Origin: Escherichia coli
GTDB lineage: Bacteria; Pseudomonadota; Gammaproteobacteria; Enterobacterales; Enterobacteriaceae
Length of the DNA stretch: 64,000 bases
Strand: one strand, 5' to 3'
NCBI RefSeq assembly: GCF_003018115.1
Contig: NZ_CP027457.1
Positions 6,001 through 9,000 of the stretch are shown here, in pieces (positions within the stretch are counted from its first letter, which is position 1; every line of letters starts with the position of its first letter). A program made the position numbers.

Positions 6001-9000
6001 AACGAGCAGGGGCTGGCAAACCGCGTCACGCCGGACAGCCTGCCGCCGGTGGAGTGGCTGACGTATGGCAGCGGCTATCTGGCGGGCATGAAGCTGGGCG
6101 GGACGCCGCTGCTGGAGTTCACGCGCGACCGCCTGCACCGTGAGACGGTGCGCAGCTTCGGCAGCAGGGCAGGCAGTAATGCCGCATATGAACTGACCAG
6201 CACATACACCCCCGCAGGCCAGTTACAGAGTCAGCACCTGAACAGCCTGGTATATGACCGTGACTACGGGTGGAATGACAACGGCGACCTGGTGCGCATC
6301 AGCGGCCCGCGACAGACGCGGGAATACGGCTACAGTGCCACGGGCAGGCTGGAGAGCGTGCGCACCCTCGCACCGGACCTGGACATCCGCATCCCGTATG
6401 CCACGGACCCGGCGGGCAACCGGCTGCCGGACCCGGAGCTGCACCCGGACAGTACCCTCACAGTGTGGCCGGATAACCGCATCGCGAAGGATGCGCACTA
6501 TGTTTACCACTACGATGAATACGGCAGACTGACGGAGAAGACGGACCGCATCCCGGCGGGTGTGATACGGACGGACGACGAGCGGACCCATCACTACCAT
6601 TACGACAGCCTGCACCGCCTGGTCCATTACATCCGTATCCAATATGAGGAGCCACTGGTGGAGAGCCGCTACCTCTATGATCCGCTGGGCCGCCGGACGG
6701 GTAAACGGGTGTGGCGGCGGGAGCGTGACCTGACGGGGTGGATGTCGCTGTCGCGTAAACCGGAGATGACATGGTACGGCTGGGACGGAGACCGCCTGAC
6801 GACGGTACAGACAGACACCACGCGAATCCAGACGGTCTACCTGCCGGGGAGCTTCACGCCGCTCATCCGCATCGAAACGGAGAACGGCGAACGGGAGAAA
6901 GCGCAGCGTCGCAGTCTGGCGGAGAAGTTACAGTCGGAAGGGAGTGAGGACGGTCACGGTGTGGTGTTCCCGCCTGAACTGGTGATGATGCTGGACAGGC
7001 TGGAGGGAGAGATACGGGCAGACCGCGTGAGCCGTGAAAGTCGCCAGTGGCTGGCGCAGTGCGGACTGACGGTGGAGCAACTGGCCAGACAGGTGGAGCC
7101 GGAATACACACCGGCGCGAAAAGTTCATCTCTATCACTGCGACCACCGTGGCCTGCCGCTGGCGCTCATCAGCGAAGACGGCAATATAGCGTGGAACGCG
7201 GAGTATGATGAGTGGGGCAACATGCTGAACGAGGAGAACCCGCATCACCTGTATCAGCCATACCGCCTTCCGGGTCAGCAGTACGATGAGGAGTCGGGGC
7301 TGTACTATAACCGGAACCGGTACTATGATCCGTTGCAGGGGAGGTATATCACCCAGGACCCGATAGGGCTGATGGGGGGATGGAACCCTTACCTTTATCC
7401 GTTAAATCCTGTCACAAATACTGACCCTCAGGGGTTAGAAGCGATTCTTCCTGGTCCGTTCCCCTTCCCAATTCCATTGCCAAAAAGTCCTGTACAGCAG
7501 GAAGCAGATGCAAATGCAGCAAAAACATTGACAAAATGGTGGAAAAACTTTGGAGATGCCATTAATAATCCGCCACCTCCTGGTAATTGTTCTAATGATT
7601 ATTATGAACATCTGAAAAATCAAAAAGAAGCTATTTGCAACCAAAAAAGAAAGTGTTACCCAACCGATAGTTGTGAAACTATACTTCAGAAAGGTGTGTA
7701 TGGTCTTGCTTGTGTATCAGCAAGGAATAATATTATGAATCAATGTTTTAATGGAGGTGATTTACGGCATCAGCTTGAAAGAGAAACGGTCAGGGGAACT
7801 ATGATGTCATGTACTACATTGGCTGTAATAAAAGGATGTTTATAAATGGGAAAAGACGAGATCATAGATTATATTCAGAAAACGTTTTCTGAATATCCAG
7901 ATTATTTGAAAAATGGGGTCGTTGATGAAGACAACATTGCATATTGCCATGACGCTATAAACCTTTTTTCTGGAAAGAGTTGGATTGAATTAATGGCCAG
8001 TGATCTTTACCATTCTGAAGATGCTGTCATGTGTCTCACTAAACCAGCATTCTCATATTATATTGCAGCCTATTTAAAACTTTTTATTGAAAATTATTAC
8101 GAAGCTGATGCTTTAGTGGATACTATTTTAAATATGCTCACTCCTCCTGTTAGGAATGGTATCCCCAGCACTACATGGATAGCAAAAAATCTTGATTGCT
8201 TTAGTCGTAATAAAAGGGTGGCTATTTCTTTTACATTCCAATATTTATGTAATGAATATAATGATCCAAATACTGAAAAGGCGTTAAATATATATTGGGG
8301 ACAGTATCTGAATGAATCATTGCTTATTAAAAATGTACAGAACTCTAAAAATAAATGTAAATCACAGTAAGACAGAATCAAGCAGAAATCGTGGGCGTGG
8401 TTCGCACCCTGACGGAGGGTGTAGCGTGTACTAGATCACAGTGAGCGACATCAAAGCTTGGTCACGTTCTGGCATTACGATGAAGCCGACCGCCTGACGC
8501 ACCGTACCGTGAATGATGAAGATGCCGAGTGCTGGCAGTACAACGAACGGGGCTAGCTGACGGAAAAAGACGAGCAGCGCATAGGGAAAGATCATCAGAA
8601 GTTCACTTTTTGTACTAAATAATTCGCATTTTATGTTTAAAAATTGAGATATTCCTCATTACCTGAAGCTGTTTTTATTGCTTATACATGATCAAATACT
8701 CCTTACATAATTAAGGAGAACAAAATGGAACTTAAAAAACTGATGAAACATATTTCTATTATCCCCGATTACAGACAAGCCAGGAAAGTAGAACATAAAT
8801 TGTCAGATATTCTACTGTTGACTATTTGTGCCGTTATTTCTGGTGCAGAAGGCTGGGAAGATATAGAGGATTTTGGGGAAACACATCTCGATTTTTTGAA
8901 GCAATATGGTGATTTTGAAAATGGCATTCCTGTTCACGATACCATTGCCAGAGTTGTATCCTGTATCAGTCCTGCAAAATTTCACGAGTGCTTTATTAAC

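What the first reader, a model, noticed from the sequence alone, without database searches (positions are those of the whole stretch)
7438..8370. Full-length Rhs tip: Pro-rich linker then a Cys-rich 135-aa domain of unknown function, with translationally coupled immunity gene
After TDPQGL the protein reads [18 protein letters not shown]... and then a domain with 8 cysteines ([42 protein letters not shown]). No nuclease, deaminase or ADP-ribosyltransferase motif is evident. The next gene starts at the base after the stop. GC content drops sharply at the core/tip boundary.
Basis: partly seen in the sequence, partly recalled or inferred. Interest (0 to 1): 0.6.

Follow-up and report, generated by a model that had tools for sequence, protein, structure and literature searches.

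The report
Rhs toxin tip (Ntox16) with immunity
The variable end of this intact E. coli Rhs protein is a member of a catalogued but never tested bacterial toxin family (Pfam Ntox16), and the gene that abuts it belongs to the DUF6714 family, which repeatedly sits next to such toxins in distant bacteria, so it is an ordinary toxin–immunity cassette whose biochemical activity is still unknown.

Summary
An intact 1397-aa Rhs gene (3652-7845) ends its conserved core at DPQGL. A 135-aa low-GC tip with eight cysteines follows, and a 174-aa ORF starts on the base after the stop codon.

The tip is not an unknown domain. It matches Pfam Ntox16 (E=2e-12) and carries that family's R…[DN]xxH signature. Zhang et al. 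2012 listed Ntox16 as a predicted metal-independent RNase toxin with no known immunity partner.

The downstream protein is a divergent DUF6714. Ntox16 and DUF6714 genes were adjacent in 10 of 13 loci examined, in Rhs, eCIS and signal-peptide toxin architectures. None of the DUF6714 partners whose N-terminus I read has a signal peptide.

AlphaFold models the tip as a three-helix bundle (pLDDT 95) with only generic structural neighbours.

Six cysteines are nearly invariant across the family. A seventh and an eighth are gained or lost together, which looks like disulfide pairing. This is hard to reconcile with a cytoplasmic immunity protein and remains unexplained.

Verdict: a new member of a known, experimentally uncharacterised toxin family. 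The modest new point is that DUF6714 is its likely immunity family. The activity (RNase?) is inferred, not shown.

The parts
3652..7845 (+). Intact Rhs gene (1397 aa) with a literal PAAR string and DUF6531 in the N-terminal region, a YD-repeat shell, the Rhs-associated core, and a variable tip
   Evidence: ORF list and translation. NCBIfam RHS_core 1-1262 scores 2605 and Rhs_assc_core covers 1185-1262. Pfam DUF6531 covers aa 47-123; no PAAR Pfam hit.
7423..7437 (+). DPQGL, the end of the conserved core (PxxxxDPxGL demarcation, taken as the autocleavage site)
   Evidence: Translation; end of the RHS_core and Rhs_assc_core matches; GC drop begins here. The cleavage itself is inferred from knowledge of the Rhs family.
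7438..7491 (+). Pro-rich linker [18 protein letters not shown]
   Evidence: Translation. Near-identical linkers occur in E. albertii and metagenomic homologues, and in P0007, which carries a different toxin.
7492..7566 (+). Pre-toxin helix ([25 protein letters not shown]). It is not conserved across Ntox16 but is shared with P0007 up to KWW.
   Evidence: AF2 helix 2-22 of the model, pLDDT 85-92. These columns are 70-85% gaps in the family alignment. P0007 sequence.
7579..7815 (+). Ntox16 toxin domain, a three-helix bundle. Near-invariant residues are Rhs C1313, C1329, C1335, C1354, R1358, C1365, G1368-G1369, D1370, H1373 and C1387. The facultative pair is C1341/C1396.
   Evidence: Pfam PF15523 E=2e-12. 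Conservation over 147 representatives. AF2 pLDDT 95 with helices 34-48, 60-84 and 90-112. Cys co-occurrence.
7846..8370 (+). Immunity gene (174 aa): a divergent DUF6714, acidic (pI 4.9), with no signal peptide or TM segment. Its ATG abuts the Rhs stop codon.
   Evidence: Sequence. Pfam DUF6714 E=0.0077 for this protein alone, 10/10 aligned relatives at E<=0.1, best 2e-10. Synteny. pI and hydropathy. AF2 all-alpha, pLDDT 88.
8452..8553 (+). Short Rhs-core remnant directly after the cassette (module boundary)
   Evidence: Annotated as an incomplete CDS in the identical genome. The sequence reads ...RTVNDEDAECWQYNERG, which resembles the core's [17 protein letters not shown].

Best explanation
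This is a standard Rhs polymorphic toxin cassette. Steps 1-3 below follow from knowledge of the Rhs/T6SS family and were not tested here.

1. The Rhs shell encloses the 135-aa tip.
2. The tip is cut off after DPQGL.
3. It is delivered into neighbouring bacteria on a type VI secretion spike.

Shown here: the tip's last ~90 residues form an Ntox16 domain, a small basic three-helix bundle. An invariant Arg (R1358) and an invariant His (H1373) sit near the turn between helices 3 and 4 (CF-x-GG-[DN]-x-x-H).

Inferred: the toxin acts on a cytoplasmic target. The most likely activity is metal-independent RNA cleavage, as Zhang et al. predicted for the family. I put that specific activity at only about 0.3.

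Shown by synteny, with binding inferred: the abutting, probably translationally coupled gene encodes an acidic, cytoplasmic, all-helical DUF6714 protein. It most likely neutralises the toxin by direct binding.

The low GC of the tip and immunity gene, and the flanking IS copies and orphan tips, show that the cassette was acquired by the usual tip-swapping recombination.
For: - Rhs architecture is complete.
- Ntox16 membership: E=2e-12, and all 79 aligned relatives are also Ntox16. The R and [DN]xxH motif is invariant or near-invariant in 147 representatives.
- Fold: AF2 gives a three-helix bundle at pLDDT 95. AFDB50 Foldseek returns only Ntox16 proteins in the rows listed.
- Family description: alpha-helical, 'R, [DNE]xxH', predicted metal-independent RNase, found with RHS, T6SS and PVC, no immunity protein listed (PMC3482391).
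- Immunity by synteny: a DUF6714-type gene is adjacent in these loci.
  - E. coli (this window).
  - Citrobacter freundii: VgrG-Rhs-Ntox16-immunity, close to Hcp and ImpA.
  - Amantichitinum.
  - Chitiniphilus, twice.
  - A Cupriavidus plasmid Rhs.
  - An eCIS toxin.
  - Three signal-peptide Ntox16 genes, one of them followed by three tandem DUF6714 repeats.
- Compartment: none of the DUF6714 partners whose N-terminus I read has a signal peptide (L008 and L009 from the alignments). In contrast, the immunity ORFs of the two neighbouring orphan tips in this window do have signal or lipoprotein-like N-termini.
- Charge: toxin pI 8.5 and immunity pI 4.9, with no hydrophobic segment in either. [quoted passage not shown]
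Against: - No activity has been measured for any Ntox16 protein.
- D1370 lies directly before helix 90-112 in the model and could be a helix N-cap rather than a catalytic residue. This is my inference.
- Six near-invariant cysteines, plus a pair that co-varies, look like disulfides. About a quarter to a third of family members carry Sec signal peptides. Both points fit an oxidising compartment better than the cytoplasm.
- In the matching genome the only vgrG at this locus is a truncated pseudogene. I did not establish whether the strain has a working T6SS.
Confidence: 0.6

Rival explanations
1. Ntox16 is a disulfide-stapled toxin that folds and acts in an oxidising compartment, such as the periplasm, the envelope or the outer face of the inner membrane. 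The cysteines form three conserved disulfides and one optional disulfide. DUF6714 only protects the producer before export.
For: - Six Cys are 98-100% conserved.
- C60 and a Cys 8-10 residues after C106 are present together in 84 sequences and absent together in 52, with 11 discordant. Pairwise gain and loss is the signature of a disulfide.
- No two of the eight cysteines are closer than five residues apart, so there is no CxxC knuckle in this protein.
- Many relatives are a Sec signal peptide directly followed by the domain.
- Target-cell DsbA is needed for some T6SS effectors (PMC5792426, listed).
Against: - Every DUF6714 partner whose N-terminus I read lacks a signal peptide, lipobox or TM segment. 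It could not protect the periplasm of a sister cell.
- The tip has no hydrophobic helix (max KD 0.96), so it is not a pore former.
- eCIS and Rhs/T6SS forms are made in a reducing cytoplasm and still need an immunity gene.
- The co-occurrence statistic ignores phylogeny.
Confidence: 0.15
2. The domain is a metal-dependent enzyme, for example a Zn- or other metal-dependent DNase or phosphoesterase. Some cysteines, together with D1370 and H1373, would coordinate the metal.
For: - From helix registers in the AF2 model, C32, C84, D89 and H92 (model numbering) should lie at the same end of the bundle.
- DxxH is a common metal-binding spacing.
- The all-alpha Ntox15 family (HxxD) is treated as a nuclease effector domain in the literature (PMC10470768, title and abstract listed).
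- 31 representatives have two tail cysteines, 10 of them as CxxC, and two more have three.
Against: - Position 89 is Asn in 14% of sequences, and Asn is a poor metal ligand.
- The cysteines are spread along about 35 Å of helix, not clustered in sequence.
- When C60 and the tail Cys are missing they are replaced by P, L and the like, not by His or Asp.
- Zhang et al. classed the family as metal-independent.
Confidence: 0.15
3. The toxin is not an enzyme. It is a small helical binder that blocks an essential cytoplasmic protein or complex stoichiometrically.
For: - The domain is very small (about 85 aa, three helices) with only three conserved polar residues.
- Structural neighbours are protein-binding three-helix modules such as MIT domains.
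Against: - Few molecules are delivered per T6SS firing, which favours catalytic toxins (general knowledge).
- An invariant Arg plus an invariant His is typical of catalysis.
- The family spans very distant phyla, so the target would have to be universal.
Confidence: 0.1
4. The cassette is intact but not deployed in this strain. It would be a stored or silent module in a decaying rhsE-type locus.
For: - In the identical genome the locus starts with a truncated vgrG fused to a truncated Rhs. It is littered with three ISAs1/ISEc1 copies, an IS1 fragment and orphan tips.
- No promoter-like site above chance lies near the cassette.
Against: - The 4.2-kb Rhs ORF and the immunity ORF are both uninterrupted, and they are 99.8-99.9% identical in five genomes.
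- PAAR/Rhs proteins can use a VgrG encoded elsewhere in the genome.
- This rival concerns use in this strain, not the identity of the cassette.
Confidence: 0.2

Closest known systems
Ntox16 (Pfam PF15523; Zhang, de Souza, Anantharaman, Iyer & Aravind 2012, Biol Direct 7:18)
   Same: - HMM match at E=2e-12.
- All-alpha fold.
- Conserved R and [DN]xxH.
- C-terminal position on an Rhs protein.
- The family is also found on PVC/eCIS and Sec-exported proteins.
   Different: Nothing that excludes membership. The 2012 description lists no immunity protein and does not list the six near-invariant cysteines among the family's conserved residues. Position 86 is R in most members, giving R-x5-H, but it is N in this protein.
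Classical E. coli Rhs elements (RhsA-E) and T6SS-linked Rhs effectors with downstream RhsI immunity genes
   Same: - GC-rich core ending in PxxxxDPxGL.
- AT-rich tip followed by a small immunity ORF.
- Orphan tips and H-repeat (ISAs1) elements downstream.
- Location next to pptA-yddH-nhoA, which I recall as the K-12 rhsE position.
   Different: The tip type is rare in E. coli. Tip-plus-immunity DNA occurs in 5 of 5426 complete genomes. The adjacent vgrG is a pseudogene.
HEPN metal-independent RNases (Rx4-6H; Anantharaman et al. 2013, PMC3710099)
   Same: - All-helical bundle.
- In most Ntox16 members an R-x5-H string spans the end of the penultimate helix and the following loop. This is where HEPN places its motif.
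- Both are predicted to be metal-independent RNases.
   Different: - The Arg of that string is only 56% conserved and is Asn here.
- The invariant Arg is 15 residues upstream.
- The conserved core has three helices, not four.
- HEPN domains have no conserved cysteines.

This is a resemblance only, not membership.
Ntox15/Tde DNase effectors with Tdi immunity
   Same: A small, mostly alpha-helical T6SS toxin domain with a short His/Asp motif and a cytoplasmic immunity protein.
   Different: The motif is different (HxxD against [DN]xxH plus an upstream R). There is no sequence or profile similarity. Ntox15 has no cysteine framework.

Membership tests
Rhs polymorphic toxin (RHS element core protein) | Full-length YD-repeat core matching the RHS_core model and ending in PxxxxDPxGL | tested here: met
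   NF041261 covers residues 1-1262 with score 2605 against a cutoff of 2000. TIGR03696 covers 1185-1262 at E=6e-23. The core ends ...[11 protein letters not shown].
Rhs polymorphic toxin (RHS element core protein) | Variable C-terminal tip of different composition, followed by a small immunity ORF | tested here: met
   GC falls from about 0.62 to about 0.36 at 7400-7500. The 174-aa ORF abuts the stop codon.
Rhs polymorphic toxin (RHS element core protein) | Autoproteolytic release of the tip and T6SS-dependent delivery | not testable with these tools
   There is a literal PAAR string at aa 5-8 and a DUF6531 domain, but no PAAR Pfam hit. The vgrG at this locus is truncated. The Citrobacter homologue lies next to VgrG and Hcp.
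Ntox16 (PF15523) | Significant match to the family HMM over nearly its full length | tested here: met
   E=2e-12, model positions 2-83 of 85. All 79 aligned relatives match at E<=0.001.
Ntox16 (PF15523) | Alpha-helical domain with a conserved R and a [DNE]xxH motif (Zhang et al. 2012) | tested here: met
   AF2 model: helices 34-48, 60-84 and 90-112, pLDDT 95. R77 is 99% conserved, D/N89 100% and H92 99%. In this protein they are R1358, D1370 and H1373.
Ntox16 (PF15523) | Toxicity to cells (RNase or other activity) | not testable with these tools
   No experimental paper was found.
DUF6714 (PF20461), as the immunity family | Match to the family HMM | tested here: inconclusive
   E=0.0077 for this protein alone. 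Its aligned relatives match in 10/10 cases at E<=0.1 and 5/10 at E<=0.001, best 2e-10. The Amantichitinum homologue (43% identical in alignment A3) is PF20461 in the precomputed data. Membership therefore holds by transitivity.
DUF6714 (PF20461), as the immunity family | Conserved adjacency to the cognate toxin across unrelated taxa and toxin architectures | tested here: met
   10 of 13 loci. One is an in-frame toxin-immunity fusion and one is a triple-repeat poly-immunity ORF.
DUF6714 (PF20461), as the immunity family | Physical neutralisation of the toxin | not testable with these tools
   Only single-chain structure prediction was available.
HEPN RNase superfamily | Rx4-6H motif with conserved R and H in a four-helix bundle, detectable by profile or fold comparison | tested here: not met

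The most novel reading that the evidence does not exclude
Ntox16 is a new catalytic scaffold: a three-helix bundle of about 85 residues, held by three or four disulfides or by bound metal, with an Arg/His site unrelated to any solved nuclease fold. It can be delivered by Rhs/T6SS, by eCIS or by plain Sec export, yet it acts in the cytoplasm. There the previously unassigned DUF6714 family is its dedicated immunity protein. Its substrate could be something other than RNA.
Probability: 0.3. Interest if true: 0.55.

Novelty: new member of a known kind. Interest (0 to 1): 0.33.

Why it matters
The finding gives an E. coli-native, full-length and easily clonable example of one of the still uncharacterised 'Ntox' toxin families. 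It also pairs that family with a candidate immunity family, DUF6714, which Pfam lists as a family of unknown function and which the 2012 catalogue does not link to Ntox16. That makes the family directly testable by toxicity, rescue, co-crystallisation and substrate hunting.

The cysteine framework combined with a cytoplasmic immunity protein is an unresolved oddity. Resolving it could show how such toxins fold after delivery. Beyond that, this is one more Rhs cassette and does not change any general picture.

Tried and rejected
- **Family libraries:** NCBIfam and PADLOC gave nothing for the tip. For the immunity protein NCBIfam gave nothing and PADLOC gave one weak hit (E=0.049).
- **PDB by sequence:** searches with the single tip sequence, the tip profile and the immunity profile gave no meaningful hits.
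- **Foldseek AFDB50, tip model:** only Ntox16 family members in the rows listed.
- **HEPN relationship:** considered because of the R-x5-H string at the helix 3/4 junction. Rejected as membership; see the membership test.
- **Pore-forming toxin:** rejected, because there is no hydrophobic segment.
- **Plasmid or phage origin of the cassette DNA:** no plasmid match by blastn. The phage collection was not searched.
- **Promoter and terminator scan:** nothing above the shuffled expectation, and no + strand terminator after the immunity gene.
- **Pfam on P0007,** the protein that shares the linker: its toxin part has no family.
- **Disulfide or metal geometry:** I could not read this from the AF2 model because coordinates are not returned.
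- **T6SS in this strain:** I could not check whether it has an intact T6SS elsewhere.
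Full report
**1. What is in the sequence**

The window carries an uninterrupted ORF at 3652-7845 encoding 1397 aa. It matches the NCBIfam 'RHS element core protein' model from end to end (residues 1-1262, 2605 bits, cutoff 2000). It also matches the Rhs-associated core domain at residues 1185-1262.

The N-terminal region contains a literal PAAR string (aa 5-8) and a DUF6531 domain (aa 47-123). Pfam reports no PAAR domain.

The core ends ...[14 protein letters not shown], with DPQGL at 7423-7437. From 7438 the protein reads [135 protein letters not shown]. That is 135 residues with eight cysteines.

The stop codon TAA is at 7843-7845. The next ORF (174 aa, 7846-8370) starts on the following base. 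An AAGGA lies 9 nt upstream of its ATG, inside the toxin coding sequence.

GC content falls from 0.58-0.72 in the core to 0.36-0.43 in the tip and 0.32-0.34 in the downstream gene.

**2. Where the window comes from**

The tip-plus-immunity DNA is 99.8-99.9% identical to five complete E. coli genomes out of 5426. Two of them are labelled O169:H41.

In those genomes the gene is annotated 'RHS element core protein' and its neighbour 'hypothetical protein'. The locus lies next to pptA-yddH-nhoA-narZ-operon genes. From memory this is the rhsE position of K-12.

The locus is a typical Rhs graveyard. It contains these elements in order:
- a truncated vgrG fused to a truncated Rhs;
- three ISAs1/ISEc1 copies and an IS1 fragment;
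- two orphan Rhs tips, each with its own small ORF;
- a short core remnant at 8452-8553, directly behind the cassette studied here.

**3. Identity of the tip**

Pfam places residues 49-127 of the tip query (136 aa: the tip plus the final Leu of DPQGL; DNA 7579-7815) in Ntox16, PF15523, at E=2e-12. The match covers model positions 2-83 of 85.

A profile search of 1.84 billion representative proteins found 609 relatives at E<=1e-3, and most carry the domain at their C-terminus. All 79 relatives that I aligned are themselves Ntox16.

Zhang et al. 2012 defined Ntox16 computationally. They describe an alpha-helical domain with conserved 'R, [DNE]xxH', found with RHS repeats and the PVC metallopeptidase. 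They list T2SS, T6SS and PVC export and no immunity protein. They file it under 'predicted metal-independent RNase toxins' (PMC3482391).

This protein has the signature: SAR(1358)...GGD(1370)LRH(1373). The claim that no motif is evident is therefore not right, although no one appears to have tested the prediction. Full-text searches for Ntox16, PF15523, 'Novel toxin 16', DUF6714 and PF20461 returned only the 2012 paper and one unrelated mention.

**4. Anatomy of the tip**

The tip has three parts.

First comes a Pro-rich linker (7438-7491).

Second comes a helix (7492-7566) that is not part of the family. These alignment columns are 70-85% gaps. The linker and the helix, up to ...TLTKWW, recur in a metagenomic Rhs tail (P0007) that then continues into an unrelated toxin with no Pfam family. 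The swap point between modules therefore lies inside the tip, not at DPQGL.

Third comes the Ntox16 domain proper, which starts at PPPPGNC. In 33 family representatives with a DPxGL-like motif upstream, the distance from that motif to the domain is mostly 20-55 residues.

**5. Conservation and structure**

The table gives conservation over 147 representatives, in model numbering where residue n equals Rhs residue 1281+n.

| Position(s) | Conservation |
|---|---|
| PPG[DN]-C32 | C 99% |
| L40 | 90% |
| C48 | 98% |
| R52-x-C54 | C 100% |
| C73 | 99% |
| A76-R77 | R 99% |
| C84-F85-x-G87-G88-[DN]89-x-x-H92 | C 100%, GG 99%, H 99% |
| C106 | 99% |
| C60 | 60% |
| C115 | 43% |

C60 and a cysteine 8-10 residues after C106 are present together in 84 sequences and absent together in 52. 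Only 11 sequences are discordant (Fisher p=6e-27, not corrected for phylogeny).

AlphaFold2 with this alignment gives a confident model (mean pLDDT 95, pTM 0.79). It has helices at 2-22, 34-48, 60-84 and 90-112, so the conserved part is a three-helix bundle.

D89 sits immediately before the last helix and may be a helix N-cap rather than a catalytic residue. That is my inference.

**6. The downstream gene**

On its own the 174-aa protein hits only DUF6714 (PF20461), weakly at E=0.0077.

Its homologues include one from Citrobacter freundii (82% identical) and one from Amantichitinum (43% identical in alignment A3). These relatives hit DUF6714 in 10 of 10 cases at E<=0.1, with the best at 2e-10.

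**7. Is it the immunity gene?**

I looked at 13 loci that encode an Ntox16 domain. A DUF6714-type gene is adjacent in 10 of them.

| Locus | Arrangement |
|---|---|
| This window | Rhs-Ntox16, then the abutting DUF6714 gene |
| Citrobacter freundii | VgrG - Rhs-Ntox16 - immunity starting on the base after the stop; Hcp and ImpA close by |
| Amantichitinum | Ntox16 followed by DUF6714 |
| Chitiniphilus, module 1 | Frameshifted immunity gene |
| Chitiniphilus, module 2 | Toxin and immunity fused in frame |
| Cupriavidus malaysiensis plasmid | Rhs-Ntox16, then DUF6714-like gene (hhalign probability 79%) |
| eCIS_core-Ntox16 protein | DUF6714 gene just upstream |
| Bosea plasmid | Signal-peptide Ntox16, then DUF6714-like gene (probability 96%) |
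| Metagenomic locus L015 | Signal-peptide Ntox16, then a PF20461 gene |
| Metagenomic locus L014 | Signal-peptide Ntox16, then one ORF with at least three tandem DUF6714 repeats (a 'poly-immunity' arrangement) |

The toxin and partner genes abut or overlap in the window, Citrobacter, Chitiniphilus, L007, L009, L011 and L014. This conserved pairing across Gamma-, Beta- and Alphaproteobacteria and across three delivery architectures is the main evidence that DUF6714 is the cognate immunity family. Neither Zhang et al. nor the Pfam family name ('Family of unknown function') records this link.

**8. Compartment and mechanism**

None of the DUF6714 partners whose N-terminus I read has an export signal (L008 and L009 from the alignments). 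In the same window, the ORFs that follow the two orphan tips do have signal-peptide or lipoprotein-like N-termini.

This argues that Ntox16 has a cytoplasmic target. The toxin is basic (pI 8.5; family median 8.45) and the immunity protein acidic. [quoted passage not shown]

My best explanation is therefore as follows.
- The tip is released inside the Rhs shell and delivered by a T6SS spike. This step follows from family knowledge and was not tested.
- It acts in the cytoplasm, using the invariant Arg and His near the helix 3/4 turn. The most likely activity is metal-independent RNase, as predicted in 2012.
- It is blocked by direct binding of the DUF6714 protein.

I give the general picture about 0.6 and the RNase activity about 0.3.

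**9. What does not fit**

The cysteine pattern behaves like three obligatory disulfides plus one optional one. By a crude hydrophobicity test, 35 of the 128 representatives that start with Met have a hydrophobic, signal-like N-terminus before the domain, and several more are visible by eye. This suggests roughly a quarter to a third of them are Sec-exported (examples). So the domain is often exposed to oxidising conditions.

A disulfide-stapled toxin with a strictly cytoplasmic immunity protein is unusual. Three readings are possible:
- The disulfides give extracellular or periplasmic stability, and the toxin still enters the cytoplasm.
- Some cysteines, with D89 and H92, bind a metal.
- The target is not cytoplasmic.

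The tools do not return model coordinates, so I could not measure S-S distances. One sequence (P0112) has lost C48 and C73 together, which hints at that pairing. Four others have lost a single cysteine.

The resemblance to HEPN RNases (R-x5-H at the end of the penultimate helix; PMC3710099) fails as membership. The Arg is only 56% conserved and is Asn in this protein. No profile or fold hit supports the relationship.

**10. Verdict**

The finding is real but ordinary in kind. It is a new, rare-in-E. coli member of a catalogued polymorphic-toxin family on a classical Rhs element.

The useful additions are these:
- assignment of DUF6714 as the likely immunity family;
- a confident three-helix model;
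- recognition of the cysteine framework;
- a module boundary inside the tip.

The biochemical activity remains unknown. The cysteine and compartment conflict is the one point that would repay experiments.

Noticed in passing
window 2404-3575: An orphan Rhs tip at 2404-3114. Its first ~77 aa are the Rhs core tail, and the tip contains [10 protein letters not shown], an HExxH metallopeptidase-like motif. It is followed at 3114-3575 by a 153-aa ORF with a signal-peptide-like N-terminus (MRFFMMKYLMALLSLFSASVLG), which suggests a periplasm-acting toxin and immunity pair. NCBIfam has no family for the tip or its partner.
   Followed up: partly
window 9839-10885: A second orphan Rhs tip at 9839-10486 (core tail, then [22 protein letters not shown]...). 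It is followed at 10487-10885 by a 132-aa ORF with a lipoprotein-like N-terminus (ILLIIISMIIISC). Neither has a family assignment.
   Followed up: partly
window 1265-2401, 8725-9861, 11060-12196: Three near-identical 378-aa ISAs1/ISEc1 (H-repeat) transposase genes separate the Rhs modules. The matching genome annotates them as ISAs1-family transposases.
   Followed up: no
window 8452-8553: A ~100-bp remnant of the Rhs core (...RTVNDEDAECWQYNERG) lies directly after the immunity gene. It resembles an internal part of the core rather than its end, and is probably a scar of the recombination that installed the cassette.
   Followed up: no
L010 (NZ_CP024269.1 247066-250889), upstream of the window's start: The locus begins with a truncated tssI/vgrG pseudogene that runs straight into an N-terminally truncated Rhs pseudogene. 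The intact Rhs studied here is therefore the second Rhs of the locus and has no intact vgrG next to it.
   Followed up: partly
P0007 (metagenomic protein, 237 aa): It shares the Pro-rich linker and the [16 protein letters not shown] helix with this tip, then continues into a different C-terminal domain (…GSTAHAVRYELSTGEKVGDRGHIQKAEQ…) that has no Pfam or NCBIfam family. This is evidence for a recombination boundary inside the tip, and the domain may be another unclassified toxin.
   Followed up: partly
L002 1259-2302 (Chitiniphilus shinanonensis): An orphan Rhs tail in which a divergent Ntox16 domain is fused in frame to a DUF6714 domain (NCBI name 'DUF6714 family protein', 315 aa). The position of the last conserved cysteine is lost at the junction. 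It could be a natural toxin-immunity fusion or a deletion artefact.
   Followed up: no
L014 1104-2429 (forest-soil metagenome contig): A single ORF with at least three tandem DUF6714 repeats lies directly downstream of a signal-peptide Ntox16 gene. The ORF runs off the contig end.
   Followed up: no
window 286-924: A 212-aa ORF follows the upstream truncated Rhs. It has a hydrophobic, Cys-containing N-terminus (MKRFFITCCVMTLFLFVKCKAAC) and no family hit. It is presumably the immunity gene of the upstream, cut-off Rhs tip.
   Followed up: no
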